38,308 nucleotides of DNA from Verrucomicrobiota bacterium (lineage in GTDB: Bacteria; Verrucomicrobiota; Verrucomicrobiia; Limisphaerales; CANJXF01). The position numbers were made by a program, and so were the translations under genes. Location of the stretch: assembly GCA_038214755.1 (NCBI GenBank), contig JBBQRQ010000047.1:1-38308 (forward strand). The letters are read 5' to 3'. Of this stretch, positions 16,008-38,235 are shown in pieces. The stretch's first letter is position 1. Each line of letters opens with the position of its first letter. The notes under the pieces are model-generated. The model was given only the letters and a program-made list of their open reading frames with translations, made no database searches and had not been told where the DNA came from.

Positions 16008-16099
16008 CAATTAGCCGCCCGATGCAAATGCTGCCTACCGCGTCCTCACTTCGATGCGTAAAGGAAATCCCGTTACGGCCCTCACCTCGCCGCGTGAAC

Positions 16100-16255
16100 G
16101 AAATCCCGCTGCCGCCCTTGGCGGAGCAACGCCGGATCGTGGCGGAACTGGACGCGGAAGCGGCGCAAATGGAAACTGTCCGCGCGCTTATCCCGAAGTT
16201 CGAAACCAAAATCCAACGTGTCCTCGACCGCGTGTGGGGCACCGCAACAGAATAG
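16100..16255 (+). pseudogene. Orphan copy of an hsdS 3' conserved region
   Basis: EIPLPPLAEQRRIVAELDAEAAQMETVRALIPKFETKIQRVLDRVWG; similar to 15219-15360 and 18145-18273. Confidence 0.85.
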
Positions 16256-16296
16256 TCGCCAAACAAATTGCAATTGTTCAATATCCCGGAAACAAG

Positions 16297-17388: not shown

Positions 17389-18060
17389 GCAAGCGAGTGT
17401 TGATTCTGGTTGAAGGCCAAACCGAAGAACGGTTTGTGAAAGATGTTCTTGGGCCGGCTTTTTTTGACAAAGAACTATTTTTTCATCCGACGATTCTGAT
17501 GACGAAACGAGTTAAAGACGGGACGCGCTTCAAAGGTGGCGTGACGAACTTCGCAAAGTTTAAAAACGACGCTCAACGATTATTGAACAGTGCTGGTGAT
17601 GCGCTGGTGACGATGTTGCTGGATTATTATCGGTTGCCCTCTGATTTTCCGGGAATGAATTCGCGCCCGGCGGCAGGAACTCCAATGCAGCGGGTAACGC
17701 ATGTGGAGAATGCCATCGCTGCACATTTTGAATCCTCGCCAAGCTTTCTTCCGTTTCTCGCGCTGCATGAATTTGAAGCGTGGCTGTTTTCATCGCCCAC
17801 AGAACTTCCGCGTGCTTTGACTGAATCCCGGAAACAGCCAAAGTTTGAAGCAATCCGTGCCAGCGTAAAAACGCCGGAGGAAATCAACGAGCGCCCAGAG
17901 TTCGCTCCGTCGAAAACAAATCGAAAAGTTGTTTCCGGCTTACAAAAAAACTTTGCATGGGCCGACTATCGCGGCTCGGATCGGTTTTGAAACAATTCGT
18001 GCTGAGTGCCCTCATTTCAACGGCTGGATGGAAAAATTGGAGGCTTTTGCTGCCTCATAA
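17385..18060 (+). pseudogene. DUF4276-like (TOPRIM/RloB-related) protein with a +1 frameshift
   Basis: ILVEGQTEERFV, LDYY, HEFEAWLFS. Removing one A from the A4 run at 17913-17916 gives PSKQIEKLFPAYKKTLHGPTIAARIGFETIRAECPHFNGWMEKLEAFAAS*. Confidence 0.8.
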
Positions 18061-18065
18061 TAAGA

Positions 18066-18273
18066 ATGCCTTCAGAAGCCCAAGCACGCATCACGATCAA
18101 TCGCCTTCTTGAAGAGGCGGACTGGCGATTTCTCCCCCGACGCGCAACGTCGGATCGTGGCGGTGCTGGACGCAGAGGCGGCGCAAATGGAAACCGTCCG
18201 CGCGCTCATCCCGAAGTTCGAAAGCAAAATCCAACGCGTCCTCGACCGCGTGTGGGGCAATGGCGTAAAATAA
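18066..18273 (+). pseudogene. Chimeric remnant: hsdR 5' end joined to an hsdS 3' end
   Basis: 18066-18147 matches the hsdR start at 19360; 18145-18258 matches the hsdS-end copy at 16127-16240; one extra C in the run at 18134-18138. Confidence 0.85.
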
Positions 18274-18280
18274 TTCGCGG

Positions 18281-19360
18281 ATGAAACCTGCAACGAAACT
18301 CCAAATCCGAAACAGCACGGCAGAGTTCCTGATCTTCACCCGACAGGCGGGTGAGGACGGCATCGAGGTGCGGGTGGCGGAGGAAACGGTCTGGCTGACG
18401 CAAAAGCTGATCAGCGTGCTGTTCGACAAGGGTCGCAGCACCATCACCGAGCATTTGACGAACATCTTCGAGAGCGGAGAACTCGATGAGAAAGCAGTGT
18501 GTCGGGATTTCCGACATACTGCCGAGGACGGCAAGGACTACACGACGCGGTTTTACAACCTCGACGCCATCATCGCCGTGGGTTTCCGGGTGAACTCGGC
18601 GCGCGCCATCCAGTTCCGGCAATGGGCAACGGGGGTGCTGCGCGACTTCGCTATTCGCGGCTATGTGCTGGACAAAGAGCGATTGAAGAACGGCGCGTTC
18701 TTGAGCAAGGCGTATTACGAGAATCTGCTGGCGGAAATCCGGGAAATCCGGGCGAGTGAACGGAGGTTTTATCAGAAGATTACGGACATTTACGCCACGG
18801 CAATGGATTACAGCCCGGAAGCCGAGATGACGCAGACTTTCTTTGCCGCGGTGCAGAACAAACTGCATTTCGCCATCCACGGGCGCACCGCCGCAGAGTT
18901 GATCGTGGAGCGCGCGGACAGCCAGAAAGAGCGGATGGGGCTGACGACCTGGAAGAACGCGCCGCACGGAAAAATCCTCACACCGGATGTGGTCGTCGCG
19001 AAGAATTACCTCACCGAAAAAGAACTGAAATCGCTCGACCGCATCGTGACGATGTATCTGGATTACGCCGAAGATCAGGCCGAGCGGAACATCCCGATGA
19101 CGATGAAGGATTGGGCGACGAAGTTGAATGCGTTTCTCCAATTCAACGAGCGGGATATTCTCGATCATCCGGGCAAGGTGAGTCAGGAAGTGGCGAAGGT
19201 TTTTGCGGAGAGTGAATTTGAGAAATACCGGATTGTGCAGGACCGGTTGTTCGAGTCGGATTTTGACCGGCACATGAAGCAGGCTTTGGAAGACAAGCCC
19301 CTGTTGCAATCAAGTGGCGAAGTGGAATTGCCGCCGAAGAAGGGAAAGAAAAAACCATAA
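18281..19360 (+). CDS. Virulence RhuM family protein
   Basis: ETVWLTQK, YNLDAIIAVGFRVNS.RA.QFRQWAT, EIREIRASERRFYQKITDIYA, VQNKLH. Confidence 0.9.
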   Translation: MKPATKLQIRNSTAEFLIFTRQAGEDGIEVRVAEETVWLTQKLISVLFDKGRSTITEHLTNIFESGELDEKAVCRDFRHTAEDGKDYTTRFYNLDAIIAVGFRVNSARAIQFRQWATGVLRDFAIRGYVLDKERLKNGAFLSKAYYENLLAEIREIRASERRFYQKITDIYATAMDYSPEAEMTQTFFAAVQNKLHFAIHGRTAAELIVERADSQKERMGLTTWKNAPHGKILTPDVVVAKNYLTEKELKSLDRIVTMYLDYAEDQAERNIPMTMKDWATKLNAFLQFNERDILDHPGKVSQEVAKVFAESEFEKYRIVQDRLFESDFDRHMKQALEDKPLLQSSGEVELPPKKGKKKP

Positions 19361-21904
19361 TGCCCTCCGAAGCCCAAGCGCGCATCACAATCAATCGCCT
19401 TCTGGAAGAGGCGGGCTGGCGTTTTCTGCCCGACGCGCAAGGTCGGCGCGAGAACATTGTTTGTGAGCATCGCGTGACGCGGCGCACGTTTTCACCGAGT
19501 CAGGACTTGGGAAAAGATTTTGACCACGCGCCGGACGGCTTCGTTGATTACGTGCTGTTGAACACGGACGACCGCCCCGCAGCCGTCACCGAAGCCAAGC
19601 GCGAGAGCATTGATCCGCTTACAGGCAAAGAACAGGCGCGAGCTTACGCAGAGAGCCTGGGCGTCGTTCACATTTTTCTCAGTAACGGGTTAGTGCATTA
19701 CTACTGGAATCTCCGGCAGGGCAATCCGGTCAAGGTCTCGCGCTTCCTTCCGCTGGAAGAACTCGGCAAAGCGGCGGAATGGAAGCCTGATTCCAAACGT
19801 CTCGCATCGGTTTCCATTGATGAGAATTACATCGCGGTTTCACAGGATGCGGCGTGGCTGAATTATTCCGCAACGGATCGCGCGGCGGTGATGGTGAACA
19901 AAAAGATTCGCTTGCTGCGCGATTATCAAATCAAGGCGATTCGTGCGTTGCAAAAAGCAGCGAAACCAGACAAGCACCGTTTCCTTTTTGAGATGGCGAC
20001 CGGCACGGGCAAAACGCTTCTCAGCGCCGCCGTGGCAAAACTTTATCTGCGAACGGAAAATGCCACGCGCATTTTGTTTCTCGTGGATCGTTTGGAGTTG
20101 GAAAATCAGGCGTGGAAAAAATTTTAACGCCTATCTCGCAGCGGACGGAATTCAAACGGTCATCTACAAACAGAAACGCCAGGATTGGAAACAAGCGCAG
20201 GTTGTCGTCACCACGATTCAGAGCCTCGCCGCGAGAAATCGTTTTCTAACCGAGTTTGCGCCCACGGATTTTCAACTCATTATCAGCGATGAAGCGCATC
20301 GCACCATCAGCGGCAACAACCGCGCGATTTTTGAATATTTCATCGGCGCAAAACTTGGTCTGACGGCGACGCCCCGCGATTACATCAAAGGCGTGAAGGA
20401 CAAAGATCGCCAGAATGACCCGCGCGAATACGAGCGGCGCTTGTTGCTCGACACGTATCAAACGTTCGGCAGCGATGACGGAAAACCAACCTTCCGTTAC
20501 AGCTTGCTGGATGCTGTCCAACACGATCCGCCTTATCTCGTGAACCCGCTCACGCTCGATGCCCGGACCGACATTACAACTCAAATGCTCTCCGACGATG
20601 GTTACGCAATCAAAGTCGCTGCGGATGAAGATGGGCAGGAAGCTGAACTTGTTTTCACAAAAAAAGCGTATGAGCGAAAGTTTTTCTCTGATGAAACGAA
20701 TTTAAGTTTTGTCCGATGCTTTCTGGATAACGCGAAGCGCGATCCGCTCACGGGCGAGATTGGAAAAACCATTTGCTTCGGTGTGAGTCGCAAGCACGCG
20801 ACGAAACTCGTCACGGTTTTAAATGAAGAAGCGACGCGACGTTGGCCGGAAATTTACGCCGCAGGTTCGACGTTCGCCGTGCAAGTCACCTCAGATATTC
20901 CCGGCGCGCAACAGATGACGATTGATTTCGCGAACAACAATCTTAATGGCAAATCCAAGTGGAAAGCGGATGAGTTTCGCGATTATGACACGAGCCAGAC
21001 GCGCGTTTGCGTAACGGTCGGCATGATGACCACGGGCTATGACTGCGAAGATGTTCTCAATGTCGTGTTGGCGCGCCCCATCCTGTCGCCGACTGACTTC
21101 ATTCAAATCAAAGGACGCGGCACACGTTTGTTCACGTTCAAACACGACGGACATTCCGCAAAGAAAGACGGCTTTGCGTTGTTCGACTTCTTCGCCAACT
21201 GCGAATACTTCGAGGAAGATTTTGATTACGATAAGAAATTAAATTTGCCGAAAATAAGAGAAGGCGGAGCCGAAGGTGGCGATGCACCCGGTTCTCGACC
21301 AGAAACCTACGCCAACACTTCGCCCGATCCACTTGCCGGTCTTCTTCAGGAACAAATCGGCCAATGGGGAATGAAGATTGATCGCGAGATGTATCGCGAG
21401 AGATTTGCCCAACAAGCATCCGAAGCAGCGGCGACCGACGAAGCTTTGCGGCACGCTTTTGAATCGGAGGATTTGCCCGCGATGGAGGAACGTATTCGCC
21501 GACTTCTTTTCGAAAAGCCGGAAGAATTTTGGAATCTCCCAAAGCTACAACAACTTTACAAAACGGATCGTCTTCCCAGCTTGCGGGAAATCATCGCACA
21601 AGTTTTTGGCCTTGTTCCGGCGATTCCGACGCGCGGCCAGCTTGCCGACGAAGCCTTCGAACGATTTGTTGCGACACAGCGGACGAATGCGGTTCACAGC
21701 CGCGAGTTGCGCATGGTCTTTATCGCATTTCTTCTCGATCCGCTTTCTCGACAAATGTTGCAGGAAGGAAGGTTCGCAGAACTTCGAGCGCGCGATGCTG
21801 GTTTGTCCGGCGCTATGTCCAAATTAGCGCGTGAAGAATGCGAAGCCTTGTTTGATTATCTAAACTCAGAGGTCGCGCTCAAAGACTTCGAGCAAGCGGC
21901 GTGA
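19360..21904 (+). pseudogene. hsdR: Type I restriction endonuclease subunit R (DEAD-box motor) with a +1 frameshift
   Basis: DYVLL...EAKR nuclease, MATGTGKT, DEAHR, GLTATP, QIKGRGTR. Removing one A from the A6 run at 20116-20121 joins ORFs 19360-20127 and 19943-21904 (QAWKNFNAYL). Confidence 0.85.
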
Positions 21905-24912: not shown

Positions 24913-25094
24913 TTTTGCAGCAGCGAGCGGATGCCAGGCTGAGAGCGTCGCGCCACAATGAATTAAACAGCGGTTCATAATTTTGAAATAATCGCGGTCC
25001 CTCGTTAGTGGCAATGCACAAATCCCAGAGCGAGACCTCACCAGAAAGTTTTTGTTCGCTGACGCGTGGCTAAAGAGAGGGAAGAAAAGTGATT

Positions 25095-25129
25095 TTGACG
25101 AATGCATAACAATTCGCTACAAGTCTCCT
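25095..25129 (+). promoter_or_regulatory. Sigma70-like promoter, leaderless configuration
   Basis: TTGACG-N17-TACAAG-N6-ATG. Confidence 0.5.
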
Positions 25130-25405
25130 ATGACACACTGCAAGCCCATTCCAGTCCGACTTGAAGAAGCGTTGCTCCGATCCCTGGAGGAGGGCGTCCG
25201 GAACACTCCGCACAAAAAACAGGAATTGATTCGGATCACGCTGCGGCGCTACCTGCCCAAAGTGATCCAGGAAGAATCCGAGAGAAAACCGCGCGCCGGG
25301 TGGCGTGAATCCTTTGCCAAAGTCAAAAAGGAAATTGCCGCCGAAAAGCATAATGGGGACTGGCTTAACTCTGCCAATGAAGGGGACAAGGATTGGCAAT
25401 GGTAA
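25130..25405 (+). CDS. Antitoxin for the MazF/PemK toxin (RHH-like N-terminus)
   Basis: IPVRLEEALL...KQELIRITLRRYL, then PRAGWRESF...DWQW; overlaps the toxin start. Confidence 0.7.
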   Translation: MTHCKPIPVRLEEALLRSLEEGVRNTPHKKQELIRITLRRYLPKVIQEESERKPRAGWRESFAKVKKEIAAEKHNGDWLNSANEGDKDWQW

Positions 25406-25716
25406 GATTGGATGTTGTCACGGTGGATTTTGACCCCACCATCGGTTCGGAAATCAAAAAAATCCGCCCCGCGCTGATTGTTTCTCCAGACGAAATGAAC
25501 TCATCCCTGCGCACTGTTCTGGTCGCGCCGATGACCCGCGCGGGCTTTTCCGCGCCAACACGCGTGCCGTGCCATTTTCGCGGGAAGGATGGTTTTATCC
25601 TGCTGGATCAGCTCCGCGCGGTGGATCGCTCCCGCATTCGACGTGTTCTGGGGAAAATAAATCCCGCCACTGGAGCGGCTGTCCTTTCCGTGTTGCGGGA
25701 AATGTTTGCCGACTAA
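25399..25716 (+). CDS. MazF/PemK family endoribonuclease toxin
   Basis: VDFDPTIGSEIKKIRPALIVSPDEMN, VAPMT, LLDQLRAVDRSR. Confidence 0.92.
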   Translation: MVRLDVVTVDFDPTIGSEIKKIRPALIVSPDEMNSSLRTVLVAPMTRAGFSAPTRVPCHFRGKDGFILLDQLRAVDRSRIRRVLGKINPATGAAVLSVLREMFAD

Positions 25717-27509: not shown

Positions 27510-27824
27510 ATGCTGGTCGTCGAACCCATCACCCATATTCAGAGGGATAAACGCGGAGTCGCTTGGATTGCAGATACGAACACGAAGGTTGTTGAAGTAG
27601 CGATGGATCACGTGGCCTATGGATGGGACGGGGAGGAAATACACGCAGCGCATCCCCATCTTTCGCTGGCCCAGATTCACGCGGCACTCTCCTATTATCA
27701 CGATCACAAAGGCGAATTGGACGCGGCTTTGCAACGGCAGTTGGAGGGCTATCGCCGGTTACGAACCGAAACCAGCGGACAATTGACGCGGGCGGAATTG
27801 CAAGAGCGCCTCGCGCGGAAGTGA
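27510..27824 (+). CDS. DUF433 family antitoxin-like protein
   Basis: AWIADTNTKV, EEIHAAHPHLSLAQIHAALSYYHDH. Confidence 0.85.
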   Translation: MLVVEPITHIQRDKRGVAWIADTNTKVVEVAMDHVAYGWDGEEIHAAHPHLSLAQIHAALSYYHDHKGELDAALQRQLEGYRRLRTETSGQLTRAELQERLARK

Positions 27825-28021
27825 GCGTAGCACTCTACATGGATGTGCATGTGCCGCGGCCTGTGACACGTGGCCTGCGCCGCCGCGAAGTGGACGTGCT
27901 GACCGCGCAAGAGGATAACACCGCGCGATGGGAAGATCCTGATTTGCTCAATCGCGCCGGGACGTTGGAGAGAGTGCTAGTCTCGCAAGACGAAGATTTG
28001 CTCATCGAGGCGGCGAAACGA
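27821..28021 (+). pseudogene. Truncated DUF5615/PIN-like toxin
   Basis: LYMDVHVP..V..GLRRR.VDVLTAQED.....D..LL..A...RVLVSQD.D. Similarity stops after ~67 aa and the frame runs on antisense into mtnA. Confidence 0.7.
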
Positions 28022-28066: not shown

Positions 28067-29221
28067 TCAATTCCGTCCCTTGCCTCCAGTCCCATAAATC
28101 CCAAGCTTTACCCGGTTTTTCCAAAGCTGCGCCGGTTTGAAAATTCCCATCGGAGTGATAATGCCCGTGATCAATTCCGCCGGCGTCACATCGAACCCTG
28201 GATTGCGCGCATGGCTCGTCGGGTTGGCGACGCGCAGATAACCGCAGTCCCCCAACTTTGAACCTTGAACTTTGAACTTTAAACTTTCCGTAACGCCCCA
28301 CGCCCCTAAGACTTCCTTTTCATCCCGCTCTTCGATCGGGATGGCCAATCCTGATGGCAAATTCCAATCAATGGTCGAAAGCGGAATCGCAACGTAAAAA
28401 GGAATCCCATGCCGCGCCGCTAAAACCGCTTTGGTGTAGGTCCCGATTTTATTGGCCACCTCGCCGGTGCGACCGAGCGTCCGATCACTGCCAACAATGA
28501 CCAAATCAACTTCACCTCTTTGCATCAAGTGACCGGCGGCGTTGTCCGCGATAATTTCGTGCGATATTTTTTGTTGCGCCAGTTCCCAGGCTGTCAGTGT
28601 TGCGCCTTGGGAGCGCGGGCGGGTTTCATCACAAAACACGTGAAATTTTTTCCCGAGTTTTTGCGCGGCATACATCGGCGCCGTCGCACTCCCCACGTCA
28701 ACAAAGGCCAGCCACCCGGCATTGCAATGGGTCAAAATCCGCGTCCCATTTCGGATCAAGCCTACGCCGTGTTTTCCAATCTGTTCGCAGTGCTGGACAT
28801 CCTCATTCGCGAACTCCTCCGCTGCGGCCAGAGCGAGCGATTGTTTTTCCGAAACGGTCTGCCCGCGACTCATGCTGCGCAGGACCGCGTTCATCGCATT
28901 CACCGGATCCACCGCTGTCGGTCGGGCCGATTTCAGAGTTTGGTAAACATTGGTAATGTGGCGCGAAAATTTCCTCAAATTGTGTCCACGAAAAGAGAGC
29001 GCGCCCTGCGCCAATCCATAAGCGGCCGTGGCACCGATGGCACCCGCCCCGCGCACCACCATGTCGGCAATGGCGCGAGCGGTGTCACGAAAAGTTTTCG
29101 TGGCGACAATTTTAAATTGATGGGGCAACAGGCGTTGCTCGATGAGCAAAACGGAATTTTTGCCTGCGTCAAAAGCGACGGTGCGAAAGTGGCGACTACG
29201 CCCGTCCAGAGTAACGTTCAT
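28067..29221 (-). CDS. mtnA: S-methyl-5-thioribose-1-phosphate isomerase
   Basis: MVVRGAGAIG, ARPTAV, ILTHCNAGWLA, DETRPRSQGA.LTAWEL, ANKIGTY, NPGFDVTP. Confidence 0.93.
   Translation of the reverse strand: MNVTLDGRSRHFRTVAFDAGKNSVLLIEQRLLPHQFKIVATKTFRDTARAIADMVVRGAGAIGATAAYGLAQGALSFRGHNLRKFSRHITNVYQTLKSARPTAVDPVNAMNAVLRSMSRGQTVSEKQSLALAAAEEFANEDVQHCEQIGKHGVGLIRNGTRILTHCNAGWLAFVDVGSATAPMYAAQKLGKKFHVFCDETRPRSQGATLTAWELAQQKISHEIIADNAAGHLMQRGEVDLVIVGSDRTLGRTGEVANKIGTYTKAVLAARHGIPFYVAIPLSTIDWNLPSGLAIPIEERDEKEVLGAWGVTESLKFKVQGSKLGDCGYLRVANPTSHARNPGFDVTPAELITGIITPMGIFKPAQLWKNRVKLGIYGTGGKGRN
28252..28286 (-). repeat. Heptamer tandem tract inside mtnA
   Basis: Minus strand AAGTTTA AAGTTCA AAGTTCA AGGTTCA AAGTTGG (SLKFKVQGSKL); same unit family as the tract in larE. 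Confidence 0.8.
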
Positions 29222-29786: not shown

Positions 29787-30848
29787 ATGAAATGTTTTGT
29801 CACCGGAGCTTCGGGATTTATCGGCGCGAATCTCGTCCACCAATTACGCGCGCGCGGGCATGACGTGAAAGTGCTGTTGCGTCGTGAAAGCGATTTGCGC
29901 GGATTGCAGGGCGTGGATGTCGAGCGCGTCAATGGAGATGTGTCAGACCGAAATGCGCTCATGTTGGGAATGCGCGGCTGCGACTGGTGCTTCCATGTCG
30001 CGGCGAGTTATCATCTTTGGCTGCGCGATTACAAACCGATGTATGCCGCGAATGTCGAAGGCACGCGCAACGTAATCGAAGCGGCGGCGAGCGCGGGCTG
30101 TTCGAGAATTGTTTACACGAGCACAGTGGGCTGCATCGGGCTGGCGCAGAAACGCGGAACGCGGAACGGGGAACGCGGAAACGAAAGAGAAAAAGGAAAC
30201 GAAGAAGTTGTTCCGACGGATGAAGCGACGCCCGTTTCCGCCGGGCAGATGAGCAATCATTACAAAATTTCCAAATGGCAGGCGGAACAAGTGGCGCGCG
30301 AATTGGCGGCGAAAGGATCGCCCGTAATCATCGTCAATCCGAGCGCGCCCGTCGGCCCACGCGACGTGAAACCCACTCCAACCGGACAAGTCATCGTCGA
30401 TTTTTTAAACCGGCAAATGCCCGCCTATCTCGATACCGGATTGAATTGGGTCCACGTCCGCGACGTTGCCATCGGTCACATTCTCGCCGCGGAGAAAGGA
30501 AGAATTGGGGAGCGTTACATTTTGGGAAATGCCAATGGTAACTGGACCATGAAAAAAGCGCTCGATGTTTTGGAAGGCATTACTGGAATTCCTGCGCCGA
30601 AATTTCGCGTCCCCTATTCCATCGCCCTGTTCGCTGCACACGTAGATGAAACAATTTCAAAATTTTCTCGCAAGCCTCCGAAAGCGCCGCTCGCCGGAGT
30701 GCGCATGGCGAAATACAAAATGTTTTTTAATCCCGCAAAAGCGATTCGCGAACTTGGCTTGCCACAGACGCCGCCGGAAAAAGCTTTGGCCGATGCGGTG
30801 GAGTGGTTTCAGGAAAACGGTTACGTGCGGAAAGGAAGTTTCTCTTAA
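29787..30848 (+). CDS. hpnA: NAD-dependent epimerase/dehydratase, HpnA-like (hopanoid-associated)
   Basis: VTGASGFIG, FHVAASY.LW, YTST, YKISK, GPRDVKPTPTG. Confidence 0.8.
   Translation: MKCFVTGASGFIGANLVHQLRARGHDVKVLLRRESDLRGLQGVDVERVNGDVSDRNALMLGMRGCDWCFHVAASYHLWLRDYKPMYAANVEGTRNVIEAAASAGCSRIVYTSTVGCIGLAQKRGTRNGERGNEREKGNEEVVPTDEATPVSAGQMSNHYKISKWQAEQVARELAAKGSPVIIVNPSAPVGPRDVKPTPTGQVIVDFLNRQMPAYLDTGLNWVHVRDVAIGHILAAEKGRIGERYILGNANGNWTMKKALDVLEGITGIPAPKFRVPYSIALFAAHVDETISKFSRKPPKAPLAGVRMAKYKMFFNPAKAIRELGLPQTPPEKALADAVEWFQENGYVRKGSFS
30151..30178 (+). repeat. Heptamer tandem tract inside hpnA
   Basis: AACGCGG AACGCGG AACGGGG AACGCGG (KRGTRNGERG). Confidence 0.85.
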
Positions 30849-30942: not shown

Positions 30943-31602
30943 GTGATTTCGATCATTATACCAACGTTGAACGAAGCGGAGCATTTGCCGATTACGCTCG
31001 AAAAAATTCGAGCTAATTTCGTGGCGCACGAAATCATTGTGGCCGATGGGGGCAGCACGGATGCGACTCTGGAAATCGCCAAAGCCGCGCGAGCAAAACT
31101 TGTCTGTTTGGAAAAACCGGGACGCAGTCTTCAATTAAACGCAGGCGCAAAAGGGGGGCGCGGTGAAACTTTCCTTTTCTTACACGCCGATACGCAGCTT
31201 CACCCTTTCAGCCTCGCGCAGATTGAAAAAGCTTTGAAAGACGCGCGTGTCTCGGGCGGCGGATTCGCGCGGCGATTTGATTCCAATTCACTTTTCCTTC
31301 GCTGCACCTGCGTTATCGGCGACGCGCGCTGTTCGTTGTTTGGACTGTTCCTGGGCGACCAGGGGATTTTTGTGCGGCGAAATATTTTTGAGCAGTTAGG
31401 CGGCTTCAAAGAAATGAAAGCGTTTGAAGATGTTGATTTTTCGCGTCGCCTGGCTTGCACGGGCAAAACCGTGACGCTCCGGCCTGCGGTGATTTCTTCG
31501 GCGCGACGTTTCGCCAGACACGGGCCATTCCTGACCACCTGTCGGGATCTTTGGCTCACTGGAAAATATGTGGGCGGGTTGGAAAATTATTCGGCGAGAT
31601 AA
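30943..31602 (+). CDS. GT2 glycosyltransferase, TIGR04283-like (arsenosugar/rSAM-associated)
   Basis: ISIIIPTLNEA, ADGGSTD, GR..QLNAGA, LFLHADT, GDQGIFVRR, FEDV, SARRF. Confidence 0.85.
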   Translation: MISIIIPTLNEAEHLPITLEKIRANFVAHEIIVADGGSTDATLEIAKAARAKLVCLEKPGRSLQLNAGAKGGRGETFLFLHADTQLHPFSLAQIEKALKDARVSGGGFARRFDSNSLFLRCTCVIGDARCSLFGLFLGDQGIFVRRNIFEQLGGFKEMKAFEDVDFSRRLACTGKTVTLRPAVISSARRFARHGPFLTTCRDLWLTGKYVGGLENYSAR

Positions 31603-32447
31603 TTTTTTTTATTTTCCAAATGCGTCTGGCGAGTGGGATTGTCGCCATTGGGTTTGCGCCAGTAATCGCGTTGTTTGACAAACGGCATTATCAAAATGCG
31701 CCAGATTTTATTGTCCTCAACTGAAGTATAGCCCGGAATGCCGATCTCAATTTTAGACTGCGTGATGTTGAGTCCCAGCGTGCGATGCAGCCTGTCCCAC
31801 CATGGAAAAACCACGCCGTAGTTTGAATTCGTTTCGCGCCGAATTTGCGAGTGATGAATGCCGTGCATGCGCGGCGTGACCAGCAGTTTGTTTAGCCCCC
31901 GTTCCAAACGGATCGGCAGGCGCAGGTTGCTGTGATGGAAGAGTGTGTTCGCCTGAAACACAATTTCGTAAATGGCAAACGTGGTAAACGACACGCCGAT
32001 CAAACTCACTTGCGCCACGCGAAACAACGTGGAGAAAAGGACTTCGCCGAAATGAAAACGGAACCCGGTGGAGACATCGAGGTCGGGATCGATGTGGTGG
32101 ACATTATGAAAACGCCAGAGCAGCGGAATTTTGTGATTCAGCAGATGCCAATAATAAAAACTCAAATCGAGCAGGAGAAATCCGGCGACGAATTGCGCCC
32201 GACCCGGCAGTCGCAGGAAATACATCAGGCCAAACGGTCGTTCGGACGACCACGCCAGCGCGGCCATCGCCGCAGGCCGGACGACGGTCATGGCGAAGAG
32301 AAAGGCGAGTCCGGTGATGCCGACATTGACGAACAGCCTGGCCAGAAAAGCCGCCTTTGCTTTGCGGAGCGGAAATAATTTCTCCAACGCAAAAAATAAA
32401 ATGAAAATTCCGAAGACAATGAGCGGCGTGTAAAAAGAGAATTTCAT
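31587..32447 (-). CDS. Sterol desaturase / fatty-acid hydroxylase family membrane di-iron enzyme
   Basis: HLLNH, HNVHH, RFH, FHHSN, HGIHH His boxes; NYG....WDRL. Confidence 0.9.
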   Translation of the reverse strand: MKFSFYTPLIVFGIFILFFALEKLFPLRKAKAAFLARLFVNVGITGLAFLFAMTVVRPAAMAALAWSSERPFGLMYFLRLPGRAQFVAGFLLLDLSFYYWHLLNHKIPLLWRFHNVHHIDPDLDVSTGFRFHFGEVLFSTLFRVAQVSLIGVSFTTFAIYEIVFQANTLFHHSNLRLPIRLERGLNKLLVTPRMHGIHHSQIRRETNSNYGVVFPWWDRLHRTLGLNITQSKIEIGIPGYTSVEDNKIWRILIMPFVKQRDYWRKPNGDNPTRQTHLENKKNYLAE

Positions 32448-32483
32448 TCAAAACTCAAAAGACAATACAGTCGTCGTGCAGAA

Positions 32484-33152
32484 ATGAAAACCCAACGCTC
32501 GATCAACAAGCTCGTGATTTTTGTTAAAGCACCTCGCCTCGGACAAGTGAAGAGCCGTTTGGCCGCCAGCATTGGCGAACCCGCCACGTGCGACGCCTAC
32601 AAAAAAATCGCCGCGCATCTGTTGGAAAATTTGCGCGGGCTGGAAAATGTGGAAATCCGATTCTCGCCGGACGACGCAGAAAACGAGTTGCGGAAATGGC
32701 TGGGTGATGATTTTGATTTTGCACGGCAAAGTTCCGGCGATTTAGGCGAGCGAATGCATGGAGCGTTTCAGAAAGCGTTCGCTGCTGGAAACGAACGCGT
32801 GGTCATGATCGGTTCGGATTGTCCTTACGTTACGAGGCAGGATGTCGCGTCCGCGTGGAAGCATCTTGAAACGCACGACATCGTTCTTGGCCCCGCGATG
32901 GATGGCGGTTATTGGCTCATCGGTTTGCGCCAGCCACAACCCGCTCTGTTTGAAAATATGGCGTGGAGCACAGAAAACGTTTTAGAAACCACGTTGAGCC
33001 GAATCCGCGTCATGAATTTGTCTTACCATTGTCTGCGCTGCCTGAATGACATTGATACTGAGAACGATTGGAATTGTTACCTGGAGAATTCCGTGAAAAC
33101 AGGTTCTCGCCCAATGAGTAGAAAGACTGACGAAATAAGAGCGGAATCCTGA
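32484..33152 (+). CDS. TIGR04282/DUF2064-like (CofC-like) transferase, arsenosugar/rSAM-associated
   Basis: FVKAP..G.VKSRLA, Q..GDLGERM, IGSDCP, VLGPAMDGGYWLIG, WST..V, DIDT..D. Confidence 0.88.
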   Translation: MKTQRSINKLVIFVKAPRLGQVKSRLAASIGEPATCDAYKKIAAHLLENLRGLENVEIRFSPDDAENELRKWLGDDFDFARQSSGDLGERMHGAFQKAFAAGNERVVMIGSDCPYVTRQDVASAWKHLETHDIVLGPAMDGGYWLIGLRQPQPALFENMAWSTENVLETTLSRIRVMNLSYHCLRCLNDIDTENDWNCYLENSVKTGSRPMSRKTDEIRAES

Positions 33153-33194
33153 TGGAAAGAAAACTCTCAATCAAACATCCTCGCCAAAGAAAAA

Positions 33195-33242
33195 ATGATT
33201 TTTTTGGATACCCAATGCATCCAAAACAAATCATCTTTCGTT
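33195..33242 (+). promoter_or_regulatory. Inverted repeat overlapping a candidate ECF-sigma promoter for the peptide gene
   Basis: ATGATTTTTTTGGAT-N9-ATCCAAAACAAATCAT (one bulge); GCATCC(33217)-N16-CGTT(33239). Confidence 0.45.
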
Positions 33243-33274
33243 AACTAGTTGGGAGTAAAAACAAAAATAAAACT

Positions 33275-33514
33275 ATGAACAAAACATCAAGATCCATGAT
33301 CGTTGCGGCAGCCATGACGGGTCTGCTTGCAGGAACCATCACCTCTGTCACCACCGGTTGCAAATCCGCTGGAACGGAATCCAGCACTTCAATGGGCGCA
33401 CACAGTTGCGCCGGACAGAATGGCTGCAAAGGTATGGGCGGTTGCAAAACCAGTGACAACGGCTGCAAAGGAAAAAATTCCTGTAAAGGAAAAGGCGGCT
33501 GCAAGGTTAGTTAA
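33275..33514 (+). CDS. Cys-rich secreted RiPP precursor (bufferin-like), possible lipoprotein
   Basis: Signal peptide ending VTTG-C29; core HSCAGQNGCKGMGGCKTSDNGCKGKNSCKGKGGCKVS with 6 Cys; directly upstream of DUF692. Confidence 0.85.
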   Translation: MNKTSRSMIVAAAMTGLLAGTITSVTTGCKSAGTESSTSMGAHSCAGQNGCKGMGGCKTSDNGCKGKNSCKGKGGCKVS

Positions 33515-33529
33515 GTTCGGCTCGAATAC

Positions 33530-33577
33530 TTTCAGGAGTTGGCGCGAAAGCGCCGACTTCCTGAAATTTTCTTTTTT
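33530..33577 (+). terminator. Stem-loop with U-tract between the precursor and MNIO genes
   Basis: TTTCAGGA-GTTGGCGC-GAAA-GCGCCGAC-T-TCCTGAAA followed by TTTTCTTTTTT. Confidence 0.75.
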
Positions 33578-33583
33578 GAGTTA

Positions 33584-34441
33584 ATGCCCGCCAATCCTTT
33601 CAACAACTTCACTGAGTACGGCATCGGCATCGGTTTGCGCGTGCCGCATTACGAACACATTCTTTCCCAGAAGCCGACCGTCGATTGGTTCGAAATCATT
33701 TCAGAAAATTTTATGGTGGATGGCGGTCGCCCGCTGGCCGTGCTCGATCAAATTCTCGAACAATACCGCGTCGTCCAGCATGGCGTTTCCATGTATTTCG
33801 GTTCGTCAGAAAAGTTGGATCGCGAACACATGAAAAAATTGAAGCGGCTGGTCAAGCGGACGAAAACGCCGTGGCTTTCCGATCATCTTTGCTGGGGCAG
33901 CGCTGATGGCCGTTTCACTCACGATTTGTTGCCGATGCCTTACACGTTTGCGGCGGCAAGAGTAACCGCCCAAAAAATTCGTGAAGCGCGTGATTTTTTG
34001 GAAGTTCCCATTGCAGTGGAAAATGTCAGCAGCTACGCCGAGTTTCATGTTTCGGAAATGACCGAGTGGGAATTTTTGAGCGAAGTCGTCGAGCAAGCGG
34101 ATTGCGGCATTCTGCTCGACGTGAACAACATTTATGTTTCTTCGCGCAATCACAGCTTTAATCCTTACGATTATTTGAACGGTGTTCCGGCTCATCGCGT
34201 GGCGCAGATTCACATCGCCGGCCACACCAAATACGAAAAATATATTCTCGATACCCACGATCATCCCGTGCTCGATCCCGTTTGGAAACTTTACGCCCAC
34301 GCCATTTCGGCCACGGGAAAAACCGCCACACTTTTGGAATGGGATGCTCACATTCCGTCGTTCGACGAAGTTCACCGCGAAGCGCTCAAAGCCAATCGAT
34401 TCATTGAAAAGCTCGAAAATAAAAAAAGTCTTGCCGCTTGA
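33584..34441 (+). CDS. DUF692 / MNIO (multinuclear non-haem iron oxidative) RiPP maturase
   Basis: GIGLR..HY, WFEIISENFM..GG, HGVS, WLSDHLCW, DLLPMPYT, ENVSSY, LLDVNNIYV, QIHIAGH, DTH, LLEWD. Confidence 0.93.
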   Translation: MPANPFNNFTEYGIGIGLRVPHYEHILSQKPTVDWFEIISENFMVDGGRPLAVLDQILEQYRVVQHGVSMYFGSSEKLDREHMKKLKRLVKRTKTPWLSDHLCWGSADGRFTHDLLPMPYTFAAARVTAQKIREARDFLEVPIAVENVSSYAEFHVSEMTEWEFLSEVVEQADCGILLDVNNIYVSSRNHSFNPYDYLNGVPAHRVAQIHIAGHTKYEKYILDTHDHPVLDPVWKLYAHAISATGKTATLLEWDAHIPSFDEVHREALKANRFIEKLENKKSLAA

Positions 34442-35387
34442 ACGTCGGCAGACCGAGGGCGAACTTCGTCAATTGCAACAACTCATGGCGGCGTCAGTGA
34501 TGCGTCCGCTGATCGCTGGCGACACGATGAACCCACGCTGGGACGACGGACGCCCAACGAAAAATGTGGTCGCCGAATTTATCAAACCGAATGACCGCCT
34601 GACTTCTTTTGAACGCCTGGAAATTTATAATCGCCAATATTGGTTGCGCGTCATTGATTGTTTTCAGGAGGATTATCCGGGATTGCGCGCCGTTTTGGGC
34701 GAACGAAAATTTTCCCGATTGACGCTCGCCTATCTCAAACAATTTCCTTCCACCTCGTTCACGTTGAGAAATCTCGGCCAATATCTCATTGAATTTATTC
34801 GCGCGAAACCAAATTTAACGAAGCCGCATTTTCAACTCGCTCTGGACATGGCGCGAATGGAATGGGCGCACATTGAAGCCTTTGATAACGAAGCGAAGCA
34901 GCGTCTGACCACGGACGATTTGCTCGGAATGCAACCGGCGGAAATTCATCTGCGCTTGCAACCTTATGTGACCCTGTTGGAACTGGATTATCCGCTCGAC
35001 GATTTTTTAGTGGCCGCAAAACAGGAAGCCGGTTTGCGCAGCGAGGCCAGCAACGCAATTGAAACCAAGCGCAAAGTTTCGCCAGTCAAACCGCGCCAAC
35101 GTCCAAAAAAAACAAAAACCTTTCTGGCGATTCACCGCTACAACGACAGTGTTTTTTACAAACGATTAACTCTGTCGCAGTTCACTTTGCTGTCGGCTGT
35201 GAAAAATGGTTCCTCACTTGAAAAGGCCTGCGAAGAAACGCTGGCCCTCGAGGATTCGGAAAATATCGGAGACGAAATCCGCGACTGGTTTCAAAACTGG
35301 ATGTCCCTGGGCTGGTTTTGCCGATCACAGAATTTATTTCCAAACAAAACGGGAAATAAAAATCCCTATGGAGTAAAATATTTGTAA
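34431..35387 (+). CDS. DUF2063-type MNIO partner protein (RiPP recognition)
   Basis: ERLEIYNRQYWLR...F.EDYPGLRAVLG...F..L...Y....PS.S..L..LG, DMARMEWA; TTG start overlaps the DUF692 stop. Confidence 0.85.
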   Translation: MPLERRQTEGELRQLQQLMAASVMRPLIAGDTMNPRWDDGRPTKNVVAEFIKPNDRLTSFERLEIYNRQYWLRVIDCFQEDYPGLRAVLGERKFSRLTLAYLKQFPSTSFTLRNLGQYLIEFIRAKPNLTKPHFQLALDMARMEWAHIEAFDNEAKQRLTTDDLLGMQPAEIHLRLQPYVTLLELDYPLDDFLVAAKQEAGLRSEASNAIETKRKVSPVKPRQRPKKTKTFLAIHRYNDSVFYKRLTLSQFTLLSAVKNGSSLEKACEETLALEDSENIGDEIRDWFQNWMSLGWFCRSQNLFPNKTGNKNPYGVKYL

Positions 35388-35436
35388 CTGCGGGAATTCA
35401 TTTTTTCCTGCAAGTCGAACACATTCAAAAATTTTT

Positions 35437-36600
35437 ATGAGCAATTCCCTTCGCGCTGAAACCGCCGTCAAAGAACGTTACGCCGCCGCAGCGAAAAAAC
35501 CGGAAGCAGCGCTCTGCTGTCCCGTCGAATACGAACCGGAATATCTCGAAATAATTCCGCAGGAAATCATCGAGAAAGATTACGGCTGCGGCAATCCGGC
35601 GAAATATTTGAAGCCCGGCGAAACCGTGCTCGATCTCGGTTCCGGCTGTGGAAAAATTTGTTTTATCGCCGCGCAGGTCGTCGGCGCGGCCGGCAAAGTT
35701 ATCGGCGTGGACATGACTGATGAAATGCTGGAAGTCGCGCGACGCAATGCGCCGATTGTTGCGGAGCGGCTCGGTTACGCGAATGTCGAGTTTCGCCGAG
35801 GTCGCATTCAAGATTTAGCCCTCGATTTGGAAAAGCTCGATGCTGATTTGCGGCAGAATCCAATTGCGAACGCCGCTTCATTTCTCGCTGCGGACGAACG
35901 CGCTGAAGAATTGCGCATCACCCATCCGCTTATTGCGAGTGATTCCACTGACGTGGTCGTTTCCAACTGCGTCTTGAATTTGGTCGAAGCGAAATCGAAA
36001 CGGCAACTCTTCGATGAAATTTTTCGCGTGCTGAAACGCGGCGGACGCGCCGTGATTTCCGACATCGTTTCCGATGAAGAAATCCCGGCGGATTTGCAAA
36101 ACGATTCGACACTTTGGAGCGGCTGCATTTCCGGCGCGTTGACGGAAGAAAGATTTTTGAAAGCATTTGCTGGCGCGGGTTTTTATGGCATTCAGATTTT
36201 GAAGCGCGATGAAAAGCCGTGGCAAACGGTGGAGGGAATCGAGTTTCGCTCCGTGACGGTTCAAGCATTCAAAGGCAAGCAAGGCGCGTGCTTCGAGCGC
36301 AATCAGGCCGTGATTTATCTCGGCCCGTTTCAAGAAATTTTGGACGACGACGGCCATCGCATGGAACGCGGCAAACGCTACGCGGTTTGCGACAAGACCT
36401 TTCAACTCTACAAAAAAGAGCCTTTCAAAAATTACTTCGCGTTCATTGAGCCGCTGACTGAAATCCCTTCCGCCGAAGCAAAACCGTTTGATTGTTCGCG
36501 CACAAGTTTTCGGCATCCCCACGAAACTAAAGGACTGGATTACACCGTCACGACTGACGCGAGCCAATGCTGCGACGGCGGAAATGGAAATTGCTGCTGA
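35437..36600 (+). CDS. Arsenite methyltransferase-like SAM-dependent methyltransferase (long form)
   Basis: LCCP, DYGCGNP, VLDLGSG.G, GVDMTDEML..AR, SNCVLNL, WSGCISGA; C-terminal extension ending CCDGGNGNCC. Confidence 0.85.
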   Translation: MSNSLRAETAVKERYAAAAKKPEAALCCPVEYEPEYLEIIPQEIIEKDYGCGNPAKYLKPGETVLDLGSGCGKICFIAAQVVGAAGKVIGVDMTDEMLEVARRNAPIVAERLGYANVEFRRGRIQDLALDLEKLDADLRQNPIANAASFLAADERAEELRITHPLIASDSTDVVVSNCVLNLVEAKSKRQLFDEIFRVLKRGGRAVISDIVSDEEIPADLQNDSTLWSGCISGALTEERFLKAFAGAGFYGIQILKRDEKPWQTVEGIEFRSVTVQAFKGKQGACFERNQAVIYLGPFQEILDDDGHRMERGKRYAVCDKTFQLYKKEPFKNYFAFIEPLTEIPSAEAKPFDCSRTSFRHPHETKGLDYTVTTDASQCCDGGNGNCC

Positions 36601-36602
36601 AC

Positions 36603-37547
36603 ATGAATCGTTTCGACGAAAAACTTTCCGCGCACCATCTCGTACTGCGCCGCGCAAAATTGCAGACGCTGCAAATCAATGTCGGGCGCAAATGCAATCA
36701 GGCGTGTCGCCATTGTCACGTGGACGCTGGGCCGTGGCGCACCGAGATGATTGACGAAACAACGGCGCATCGCATCGGCGAGTGGATTGAAAAATTCCGT
36801 CCGGAAATTGTGGACATCACGGGCGGCGCGCCGGAGTTGAGCGAATTTTTTAAATACTTCGTGGAGACAGCGCGCGGTGCGGGTTGTCACATCATTGACC
36901 GAAATAATCTCACCATCATCGAAGAAAAAAATTTCAGCTGGCTGCCGGAATACTTGGTTGAACACGACGTGGAAGTCATCGCGTCGCTTCCGTGCTACTC
37001 CAAGGAAAATGTGAACAAGCAGCGTGGAAATGGCGTTTTTGAAAAAAGCATTTCGGCGCTAAAAAAATTAAACGCGGTCGGATACGGAAAAACATTTCCC
37101 CTCCATTTGGTTTACAATCCGCTCGGCGCGAATCTGCCTGGACCGCAAGCTGAGTTGGAAGCCGATTACAAAGAAGTTTTGCTCCGCGATTTCGGCATCA
37201 CGTTCAACAATTTGTTTGTCATCACCAATCAGCCGATTGCCCGCTTTGCCGAAGATTTGCGGCAGCAAGGCAAGTGGGACGAATACCTTGAGTTGCTCGC
37301 CAACAGTTTCAATCCAGCCACAGTGGAAAATGTGATGTGCCGCTCGACGTTGAGCGTCGGCTATCGTGGAGAGATTTACGATTGCGATTTCAACCAGATG
37401 TTCGGAATGCAATTGCAAAATGGAAAACCACTTTACCTTTGGGACGTTACGCCCGACGACCTCTTGAACAGGCCGATTGCAACAGGCATTCATTGTCTTG
37501 CCTGCACCGCCGGATGCGGCAGCAGTTGCACCGGCGCTCTGAATTAA
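36603..37547 (+). CDS. arsS: Radical SAM enzyme, ArsS-like (arsenosugar biosynthesis, Cys-rich tail)
   Basis: LQINVGRKCNQACRHCHVDAGP, DITGGAPEL, ASLPCY, MCRS, YDCDFNQM, HCLACTAGCGSSC. Confidence 0.88.
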   Translation: MNRFDEKLSAHHLVLRRAKLQTLQINVGRKCNQACRHCHVDAGPWRTEMIDETTAHRIGEWIEKFRPEIVDITGGAPELSEFFKYFVETARGAGCHIIDRNNLTIIEEKNFSWLPEYLVEHDVEVIASLPCYSKENVNKQRGNGVFEKSISALKKLNAVGYGKTFPLHLVYNPLGANLPGPQAELEADYKEVLLRDFGITFNNLFVITNQPIARFAEDLRQQGKWDEYLELLANSFNPATVENVMCRSTLSVGYRGEIYDCDFNQMFGMQLQNGKPLYLWDVTPDDLLNRPIATGIHCLACTAGCGSSCTGALN

Positions 37548-37569
37548 AATGAGACCTCTGCAAAGCAGC

Positions 37570-37644
37570 GTAGGCGGCGTCTCGGCAGAGCGCCGTGAAT
37601 GGTGGAAACGCGAAGAAAACGGCGCTCTGCCGAGACGCAACGAC
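37570..37644. repeat. REP-like doublet, family D
   Basis: GTAG end; GCGTCTCGGCAGAGCGCCG ... CGGCGCTCTGCCGAGACGC perfect 19-bp inverted arms. Confidence 0.75.
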
Positions 37645-37677
37645 ACCCGATCAAGCCTTTTTCAAAGATCTCTGAAT

Positions 37678-38235
37678 ATGAAAAAAATAACAGCGCTCGC
37701 ATTACTTCTCATCCTCACGGGATGGGCAACCATTCAAGCCGCAACTCCACCCGAAGTGGGAAGCGCCGCTCCGAACTTCAAACTCAACACACTCGACGGC
37801 AAATCGGTTGAGTTGAAGCAACTCGTGAACAAGAAACCGGTGGTGCTCGTCGTGTTGCGCGGTTGGCCGGGTTATCAATGCCCGCTTTGCACGAGGCAGG
37901 TGCAGGATTTCGTCAAGCACGCCGACGAGTTCGCGCAACTGGCGCAAGTCGTGATGGTCTATCCGGGGCCAAGTGAAAATCTCAAAGCGCACGCAGAGGA
38001 ATTTCTTCGTGATAAAAATTGGCCGAAAGATTTTTTGTTCGTGACGGACCCCGATTACACATTCACCGGCCAATACGGCTTGCGCTGGAAGGCCGAGAAG
38101 GAAACGGCGTATCCCTCAACGTTCGTCCTAAATAAAAATGGCAAAATAAAATTCGCGCATGTGAGCAAAGGTCACGGTGACCGCATCTCCGCCGCCGCTG
38201 TGTTGAAGGCGCTGAAGGAACGAAATGAAAACTAA
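37678..38235 (+). CDS. Secreted AhpC/TSA (peroxiredoxin-like) thioredoxin-fold protein
   Basis: Signal peptide MKKITALALL..., VGSAAPNFKL, RGWPGYQCPLC, YPSTFVL. Confidence 0.85.
   Translation: MKKITALALLLILTGWATIQAATPPEVGSAAPNFKLNTLDGKSVELKQLVNKKPVVLVVLRGWPGYQCPLCTRQVQDFVKHADEFAQLAQVVMVYPGPSENLKAHAEEFLRDKNWPKDFLFVTDPDYTFTGQYGLRWKAEKETAYPSTFVLNKNGKIKFAHVSKGHGDRISAAAVLKALKERNEN

What the first reader, a model, noticed from the sequence alone, without database searches (positions are those of the whole stretch)
30943..38235. MNIO (DUF692) RiPP module inside an arsenosugar-type gene cluster
Seen: TIGR04283-like GT, (desaturase), TIGR04282-like transferase, Cys-rich precursor, DUF692, DUF2063, ArsM-like methyltransferase, ArsS-like radical SAM and a secreted CxxC redoxin. 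All but the desaturase are co-oriented, and DUF2063 to ArsM is only 49 nt. Established: ArsM plus ArsS start arsenosugar synthesis in cyanobacteria; DUF692/DUF2063 pairs convert precursor Cys residues into heterocycle-thiol metal ligands in bufferin-type copper-binding peptides. Inference: a combined metal(loid) system in which a modified peptide captures As(III) or another thiophilic ion while the enzymes methylate and glycosylate it, or in which the rSAM/methyltransferase/GT set further tailors the peptide. I know of no described link between these two pathways. No DoxX partner or sigma/anti-sigma pair is visible in the window.
Basis: partly seen in the sequence, partly recalled or inferred. 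Interest (0 to 1): 0.82.

Follow-up and report, generated by a model that had tools for sequence, protein, structure and literature searches.

The report
Bufferin operon heading arsenosugar genes
A bacterium carries genes for a predicted copper-binding peptide in the middle of its arsenic-sugar gene cluster; the same pairing recurs in other bacteria, likely because one stress switch turns both on, not because the two pathways share chemistry.

Summary
All nine genes are real, at the stated places. The peptide module is an ordinary Buf2-type bufferin. The rest is the usual ArsM/ArsS/TIGR04282/TIGR04283 cluster, which continues past the window end. The pairing is not unique. It occurs in 4 of 12 genomes of this order that hold both modules, in metagenomes, and, with a Buf1 operon, on a Cupriavidus sp. 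KK10 plasmid. It is not obligate: presence of the two modules is independent (12 observed, 10.6 expected), 0 of 14 Acidobacteriota with both have them on one contig, and linked precursors look like unlinked ones. A GGAATAW box sits at a fixed distance before an ECF sigma gene (15 of 17) and arsS (19 of 61 loci), and before many precursors. This genome lacks that sigma; a SigK-like promoter before the precursor likely drives bufferin plus arsM-arsS. Best reading: two separate pathways in one stress regulon on a mobile cassette (0.6). Arsenic capture by the peptide or peptide tailoring has no support. No expression data exist here. Our literature searches found no description, but this scan noted the same link before on other DNA.

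The parts
29787..30848 (+). hpnA, left flank of the cassette (not part of it)
   Evidence: TIGR03466 424.9/367.65; lies 144-330 nt from an aminotransferase-V gene in G042 and G005, i.e. an empty site
30943..31602 (+). TIGR04283 arsenosugar-associated glycosyltransferase
   Evidence: 209.7 bits, cut-off 182
31587..32447 (-). Fatty-acid hydroxylase / sterol desaturase family; a regular member of ArsS clusters
   Evidence: PF04116; also beside ArsS genes in G004, G042 and an Acinetobacter plasmid
32484..33152 (+). TIGR04282 CofC-like transferase
   Evidence: 207.6 bits, cut-off 134
33217..33242 (+). Candidate ECF promoter GCATCC-N16-CGTT (motif M2), inside an imperfect inverted repeat at about 33195-33234
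   Evidence: M2 before 16 of 34 Acidobacteriota and 7 of 36 Verrucomicrobiota precursors, 1.5% of random 200-mers; 1 of 5 intergenic exact matches in the genome, 2 of which precede a sigK/rskA-like pair and its neighbour operon. Function inferred.
33275..33514 (+). BufA2-type precursor, 79 aa: signal peptide ending in lipobox-like TTGC (C29), six-Cys core C45, C51, C57, C64, C70, C76
   Evidence: NF050166 E 6.7e-11, under cut-off; alignment with about 105 relatives (output cut; counts); Cys positions
33530..33566 (+). Strong stem-loop followed by a U-rich tail, between precursor and MNIO; likely leaky terminator or mRNA stabiliser
   Evidence: -30.3 kcal/mol, z -6.27; 90 of 109 MNIO upstream regions fold at -25 or lower (no shuffle control)
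33584..34441 (+). MNIO (DUF692) bufferin maturase BufB
   Evidence: NF050167 344.4/310, PF05114
34431..35387 (+). DUF2063 partner BufC (start uncertain: 34431, 34473 or 34485)
   Evidence: PF09836 E 2.1e-14; candidate starts
35437..36600 (+). Long ArsM-type As(III) SAM methyltransferase
   Evidence: C51, C178, C230 align with C72, C174, C224 of PDB 4kw7 arsenic methyltransferase; under all ArsM cut-offs
36603..37547 (+). ArsS radical SAM enzyme
   Evidence: TIGR04167 426.8/300; CxxxCxxC at 31-38 and Cys-rich C-terminus
37577..37638 (.). Long inverted repeat between arsS and the redoxin gene, no U-run
   Evidence: z -6.88 for 37560-37660
37678..38235 (+). Exported CxxC redoxin (AhpC/TSA)
   Evidence: PF08534, PF00578; C68/C71
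38225..38308 (+). Start of a 230-aa DUF3047-like gene; the cluster continues on C139 with TVP38 and a MerA-like flavoprotein

Best explanation
This is an inserted cassette in which an ordinary Buf2-type bufferin operon and an ArsM/ArsS arsenosugar-type cluster likely work as two chemically separate pathways under one envelope-stress (ECF sigma) switch. Shown: gene identities, tight spacing from the precursor to the MerA-like gene, insertion at a variable site between hpnA and an aminotransferase gene, recurrence in other genomes, and the conserved motifs. Inferred from Caulobacter Buf2: BufB/BufC would turn the four inner cysteines into thiooxazoles, C45-C76 would form a disulfide, and the exported, probably lipid-anchored peptide would buffer copper or a similar thiophilic ion in the periplasm. 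Inferred from ArsM/ArsS biochemistry: in the cytoplasm ArsM would methylate As(III) and ArsS would adenosylate dimethyl-As(III); the transferases would act later. Inferred from motifs: here a SigK/RskA-like sigma encoded on contig C31 would start transcription before the precursor, the hairpin would keep peptide mRNA in excess, and read-through would express bufB-bufC-arsM-arsS and the redox genes. In relatives an ECF26-like sigma, and in Cupriavidus KK10 SigF/NrsF, would do the same job. The likely reason for co-regulation is that thiophilic-metal or thiol-oxidation stress calls for both, with the bufferin shielding the Fe-S and cysteine-rich enzymes (untested).
For: Linkage above chance: 4 of 12 genomes of the order with both BufB and ArsS have them within 12 kb (G000, G042, G235, G288), against about 0.6% expected per genome; G004 adds an arsS end 4 kb from its MNIO. 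Also 2 of 80 closest GTDB MNIO loci and 5 of 80 closest metagenome ArsS loci. Linked MNIOs need 6 changes on the tree, 5 forced by starred branches. A Buf1 operon heads a gap-free run PiT-arsM-AhpD-arsS-MerA-like-TVP38-TIGR04283-TIGR04282-MTAP-rSAM-DUF547 in Cupriavidus sp. KK10, with GTAACC-N16-CGAA before bufA, the published SigF motif (PMC3511200). Motif M1, derived from precursor upstreams only, lies before 15 of 17 ECF sigma genes and at -34 to -40 of 19 of 61 arsS loci, against 1.1% of random 120-mers; never when arsM lies directly upstream (0 of 9). Its -35 box equals the ECF26 consensus GGAATA (PMC6180224). The same sigma/anti-sigma pair lies beside bufferin modules without ars genes (L046, L074, L075) and beside ars genes without bufferin (L057, L071, L233).
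Against: No expression, transcript or binding data. The window genome lacks the M1 sigma (best hits 24-33% identity), so its promoter rests on M2, which is short: 583 PWM hits genome-wide, and it lies before only 1 of 3 SigK-like genes in two relatives. Genomes with the M1 box at arsS hold the sigma about as often as those without (16 of 19 against 28 of 39). Kin are not independent: most linked loci form one clade, and the AU test did not reject joining the window's MNIO to it (p 0.057). TIGR04283 and TIGR04282 lie upstream of the candidate promoter and show no motif. No link in 14 Acidobacteriota with both genes or in G494 (560 kb apart). Bufferin operons also sit beside mer and chrA genes.
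Confidence: 0.6

Rival explanations
1. Plain co-location on metal(loid)-resistance islands: both modules are mobile, land in the same hot spots and are transcribed and regulated separately.
For: The block is an insert at a variable site ending in a chimeric remnant of both flanking genes. A B. thailandensis plasmid holds mer, two buf1 operons and ars genes in one island; B. contaminans has buf1 beside mer and chrA without ars genes in the 25 kb shown. A MerC-GDCCVxC gene lies between arsS and bufA in G042. Co-presence is at chance level.
Against: The shared box appears before arsS and before precursors also where they are unlinked. Gaps of 49 and 2 nt in the window and of at most about 54 nt along the KK10 run leave little room for separate promoters. 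By eye, no other metal-resistance family recurs near 68 Verrucomicrobiota MNIO loci (19 cluster representatives scanned).
Confidence: 0.24
2. Biochemical coupling: the modified peptide binds As(III) or a methylated trivalent arsenical in the periplasm and feeds or buffers the arsenosugar pathway.
For: Repeated association across MNIO clades and two bufferin families. MerC-Buf2 fusions show that bufferins may serve other metals (PMC12452194).
Against: No sequence specialisation of linked precursors. 108 of 112 ArsS-positive genomes of the order have no full BufB gene nearby. The peptide is exported while ArsM and ArsS show no signal peptide by eye. Characterised members bind Cu (PMC11626156, PMC13097082).
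Confidence: 0.08
3. ArsS, ArsM or the transferases are RiPP tailoring enzymes that further modify the peptide.
For: Only adjacency and co-orientation.
Against: ArsS passes its equivalog cut-off and scores under 40 bits against peptide-maturase rSAM models; ArsM keeps the arsenic-methyltransferase cysteines; closest orthologs occur without any precursor; gene order is shuffled among linked loci.
Confidence: 0.03

Closest known systems
Bufferin 2 (BufA2B2C2) of Caulobacter vibrioides; Buf_6/12Cys or Cys-Lys captophorins (PMC11626156, PMC12452194, PMC13097082; passages read)
   Same: Precursor-MNIO-DUF2063 order, signal peptide, six-Cys core, no DoxX, no adjacent sigma; controlled in trans by an ECF sigma (SigF in Caulobacter).
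   Different: Lipobox-like signal (reported for about 16% of Buf2); candidate promoter is SigK-like, not SigF; embedded in an ArsM/ArsS cluster.
ArsM + ArsS arsenosugar pathway with TIGR04282/TIGR04283 (ArsS reaction from a passage of PMC13598754; primary papers not read)
   Same: ArsS, TIGR04282 and TIGR04283 over cut-off; desaturase, TVP38 and FAD oxidoreductase companions as on Acinetobacter and Pseudanabaena plasmids.
   Different: Long ArsM under the arsenosugar-ArsM cut-off; no TIGR04169 or SBF/Acr3 match in the genome; no ArsR-family gene at the locus; bufferin module inside.
ECF26 (S. meliloti RpoE1/E4/E6), ECF16/SigF-NrsF and SigK-RskA regulons (PMC6180224, PMC3511200, PMC7509140; passages read)
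   Same: M1 -35 box equals the ECF26 consensus; KK10 has the SigF motif and an NrsF gene; the window genome has a sigK/rskA-like pair preceded by the M2 motif.
   Different: None of the passages read names arsM/arsS as a target; group membership of the Verrucomicrobiota sigma was not tested by tree; the SigK promoter consensus is recalled, not from a call.

Membership tests
Buf2 bufferin cluster | MNIO of the bufferin group | tested here: met
   NF050167 344.4 over 310
Buf2 bufferin cluster | DUF2063 partner next to the MNIO | tested here: met
   PF09836
Buf2 bufferin cluster | Exported precursor with six conserved Cys | tested here: met
   Six-Cys core and hydrophobic N-terminus; signal peptide judged by eye
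Buf2 bufferin cluster | Precursor passes the BufA2 model cut-off | tested here: not met
   42.2 against 60; relatives score 37-51 too, so the model may not cover this clade
Buf2 bufferin cluster | Thiooxazole formation and Cu binding | not testable with these tools
   Needs LC-MS, UV and titration
ArsM/ArsS arsenosugar cluster | ArsS equivalog with CxxxCxxC and Cys-rich tail | tested here: met
   TIGR04167 426.8/300
ArsM/ArsS arsenosugar cluster | TIGR04282 and TIGR04283 transferases | tested here: met
ArsM/ArsS arsenosugar cluster | As(III) methyltransferase with conserved cysteines | tested here: inconclusive
   Three cysteines align to PDB 4kw7 (their catalytic role is recalled), but all ArsM cut-offs are missed
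ArsM/ArsS arsenosugar cluster | Production of arsenosugar | not testable with these tools
   Needs HPLC-ICP-MS
Classical ArsR-controlled ars resistance operon | arsR, arsC and Acr3/ArsB at the locus | tested here: not met
   HTH_5 and LMWPc matches lie on other contigs, no SBF match; ArsB not searched
rSAM-tailored RiPP cluster | Peptide-maturase rSAM that depends on a precursor | tested here: not met
   Maturase models under 40 bits; close ArsS orthologs without precursor
ECF26 regulon (relatives) | -35 GGAATA box before the sigma gene and targets | tested here: met
   met in relatives, absent from the window cluster's intergenic DNA
ECF26 regulon (relatives) | Sigma falls in group ECF26 by phylogeny | not tested
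   Only weak NCBIfam hits, PRK12511/12517/12522

The most novel reading that the evidence does not exclude
The bufferin is a working part of organoarsenic metabolism: a lipid-anchored thiooxazole peptide traps As(III) or methylated trivalent arsenicals in the periplasm for a pathway that several lineages have independently placed under the bufferin's own stress sigma factor. It would be the first RiPP metallophore for a metalloid.
Probability: 0.08. Interest if true: 0.85.

Novelty: new variant of a known kind. Interest (0 to 1): 0.5.

Why it matters
What bacteria make arsenosugars for, and what induces the genes, is open (own knowledge). If arsM-arsS is read from bufferin promoters under three different ECF systems, the pathway answers to copper or thiol stress rather than to ArsR-sensed arsenic. 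Cupriavidus sp. KK10, a cultured soil isolate, offers a direct test. The finding also warns that rSAM, methyltransferase and GT genes beside a MNIO need not be RiPP tailoring enzymes.

Tried and rejected
Unique chance juxtaposition: rejected. Obligate co-occurrence: rejected for BufB over cut-off (12 against 10.6, p 0.68); all MNIO matches at E 1e-40 do co-occur with ArsS (34 against 20.8, p 1e-4), but none of the lower-scoring ones shares a contig with ArsS, so habitat or genome size is the likelier cause. Single origin of the link: not settled for the window's MNIO (AU p 0.057; 48 of 118 rows used, LG+G4 quick tree). Sigma-70 scan: nothing above shuffles, and it missed the precursor hairpin. 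DoxX loss in linked loci: tblastn found none in 18 loci but had no positive control, and KK10 has DoxX, so no claim is made. 40 further ArsS loci of the order had no MNIO or precursor. C. necator N-1 and P. phenoliruptrix buf1 loci show no ars genes within 12 kb; Hymenobacter, Acinetobacter and Pseudanabaena ArsS loci show no MNIO within 9-10 kb. No RNA holder listed. No structure or complex prediction was run. Literature: DUF692 + arsenosugar 0 papers; MNIO + arsenic 7 unrelated listings; TIGR04282/TIGR04283 2 listings, not read; DUF3379 + sigma 1 unrelated listing; 'arsen' 0 times in the main text of PMC12452194, PMC11626156, PMC13097082. Their supplements (gene co-occurrence tables) were not read and may hold the link; subscription journals are not in the library.
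Full report
Observation. TIGR04283, TIGR04282, BufB-type MNIO and ArsS pass their NCBIfam cut-offs; the precursor (42/60) and the methyltransferase (best 348/500) do not. Pfam adds FA_hydroxylase, DUF2063 and Redoxin. Each is single-copy in the genome. The closest MNIO relatives in named records are Verrucomicrobiota, Limisphaerales among them. Gaps are 122 nt (TIGR04282-precursor), 69, about -11, 49, 2 and 130 nt. The cluster continues on contig C139 with a DUF3047-like gene, TVP38 and a MerA-like flavoprotein; the joint is a unique 141-nt overlap and is spanned by one contig of a separate assembly of the probable source run.

Origin of the block. In G005 and G042 hpnA lies 330 and 144 nt from an aminotransferase-V gene; in G001 a different 3.5-kb insert fills the gap. 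In the window genome the interval holds the whole cluster, then a chimeric remnant (266 nt 90% like the aminotransferase start, 136 nt 78% like the hpnA end), then four other genes. G004, of the same genus, has the same left end (hpnA-TIGR04283-desaturase-TIGR04282) but TVP38 and the flavoprotein next, and on another contig arsS end-DUF547-two precursors-MNIO-DUF2063-DUF3047-like-aminotransferase. So this is a rearranging cassette at a variable site.

How often are the modules linked? Of 301 genomes of the order (80% complete or more, own included, one of them the unpublished G009), 28 have BufB over cut-off and 114 an ArsS match, 112 over cut-off. Twelve have both, 10.6 expected (p 0.68). In 4 of the 12 they lie within 12 kb (G000, G042, G235, G288). 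In 4 (G007, G031, G037, G077) the MNIO contig is 6.3 kb or shorter and says little; G007 has a precursor alone in its ars cluster. In 4 they are apart, though G079's module directly precedes a TIGR04282 gene and G301's abuts the flavoprotein and the sigma pair. Of the 80 best of 570 GTDB MNIO loci (9 of 64 parts scanned) 2 have close arsM or arsS homologs within 10 kb. Of the 80 best of 176 metagenome ArsS loci 5 have the module; only 32 loci reach 8 kb and some are near-copies. Outside the order: 1 of 250 other Verrucomicrobiota has both, 560 kb apart; 14 of 201 Acidobacteriota have both, none on one contig. Of 53 plasmid records with ArsS (48 Burkholderia) six were inspected. Cupriavidus sp. 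KK10 p1 has sigma and NrsF facing away from bufA1 (DUF2282)-bufB-bufC-doxX-unknown-PiT-arsM-AhpD-arsS-flavoprotein-TVP38-TIGR04283-TIGR04282-MTAP-rSAM-DUF547, all on one strand with short gaps. B. thailandensis has mer, two buf1 operons and the ars genes in one island; B. glumae has a MNIO 22 kb from arsS. Three have no MNIO nearby. The link is therefore real, recurrent and optional.

Origins. On a 118-row FastTree and a 48-row IQ-TREE the 12 linked MNIOs need 6 changes (shuffled mean about 11); seven form one clade, and the window's enzyme sits in a starred 13-row set of otherwise unlinked ones. The AU test does not reject moving it to the main clade (p 0.057). Two distant MNIOs (L037, L167) and the Buf1 of KK10 are separate cases.

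No sign of shared chemistry. The six-Cys core pattern is in 13 of 14 linked and 80 of 91 unlinked precursors; the lipobox-like end is in 8 of 14 and 16 of 91, but five or more of those eight are one clade. ArsS is 81% identical to G244's and ArsM 87% to G163's, with no MNIO or precursor in 19.9 kb. ArsM keeps C51, C178 and C230, aligned with C72, C174 and C224 of a solved arsenic methyltransferase. ArsS adenosylates DMAs(III) according to a review passage (PMC13598754). Caulobacter Buf2 carries -4 Da on four inner cysteines and is induced by Cu through SigF (PMC11626156 passages).

Regulation. An unbiased gapped-word count on 101 precursor upstream regions gave two motifs: GGGAATAA (M1, 16 regions) and ATCC-N16-CGTA (M2, 14), against 7-11 for the best, A-rich words of five resamplings. 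Applied to genes not used to find it, GGAATAW lies within 120 nt of 15 of 17 ECF sigma genes that precede a DUF3379-like anti-sigma, and at -34 to -40 of 19 of 61 arsS loci (a few genomes give two loci), against 1.1% at random. It is absent where arsM directly precedes arsS (0 of 9), as expected of an operon-head promoter. It precedes 20 of 36 Verrucomicrobiota precursors and 1 of 34 in Acidobacteriota (partly circular). GGAATA is the ECF26 -35 consensus (PMC6180224). The sigma is found in 177 of 301 genomes, enriched with BufB (23 of 28, p 0.008) and weakly with ArsS (76 of 114, p 0.04), kin not corrected, but not in the window genome (97% complete). There the only intergenic match to either motif in the cassette is GCATCC-N16-CGTT before the precursor. 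Five such exact intergenic sites exist in the genome; two precede a sigK/rskA-like pair and the TPR-DUF4331-HupE/UreJ operon behind it. Spacers of 14-17 give similar total counts (15-21), so the motif is not enriched overall, and only 1 of 3 homologous sigma genes in relatives has it. KK10 has the published SigF motif 50 nt before bufA (2 matches, 0.10 expected). A strong hairpin with a U-rich tail follows the precursor.

Mechanism. Most likely two pathways in one regulon (0.6): a periplasmic, probably lipid-anchored copper buffer and a cytoplasmic ArsM-ArsS route, transcribed here from the precursor's promoter. Gene content, spacing and motifs are shown; promoter activity, co-transcription, chemistry and the inducing signal are inferred. 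Rivals: island co-location with separate control (0.24), arsenic capture by the peptide (0.08), peptide tailoring (0.03).

Novelty. Both modules are known. The searches named under Tried and rejected found no description of the link; papers were read as keyword passages only, without supplements. Earlier notes of this scan report the same pairing or regulon in other genomes; I saw them after finding M1 and treat them as leads, not support. Verdict: new variant of a known kind, interest 0.5.

Noticed in passing
L032:3184-3560 (G000:C139): Chimeric remnant: 5' part of the aminotransferase-V gene joined to the 3' end of hpnA, marking the right edge of the cassette; a second insert (C39-like peptidase, two unknown genes, ECF sigma) follows.
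   Followed up: partly
L273:1577-7433 (G000:C31): sigK/rskA-like pair and a TPR-DUF4331-HupE/UreJ operon, both preceded by GCATCC-N16-CGTW.
   Followed up: partly
L291 (Cupriavidus sp. KK10 plasmid p1, NZ_CP073678.1, 972383-991297): Unannotated record: complete buf1 operon with SigF/NrsF heading a 12-gene arsenosugar-type run, including a 368-aa exported protein of no known family.
   Followed up: yes
L023:8511-9104 (G042): MerC-like protein fused to a GDCCVxC domain, between arsS and the precursor; also beside arsS in L209 and L266.
   Followed up: partly
L132:12383-13393: A 337-aa gene with no Pfam match lies near 35 of 108 Buf2 modules.
   Followed up: no
L037:10562-11047 (G079): 162-aa twin-arginine-type precursor with a distant MNIO clade; its DUF2063 gene is followed directly by TIGR04282.
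   Followed up: partly
window 28067-29221: mtnA (methylthioribose-1-phosphate isomerase) lies 1.7 kb left of the cassette; MTAP genes accompany ars clusters elsewhere, but a role here was not tested.
   Followed up: no
window 13416-21904: Type I restriction-modification genes with an AAA ATPase/DUF4276-like pair, a RhuM-like gene and an IS200-like gene (names by eye, not scanned).
   Followed up: no
window 25052-25716 and 27510-28000: A MazEF-like pair and a DUF433/DUF5615-like pair (names by eye, not scanned).
   Followed up: no
L233, L234, L239, L240: Conserved run TIGR04282-arsS-ECF sigma-anti-sigma next to a CobW GTPase in one genus.
   Followed up: partly
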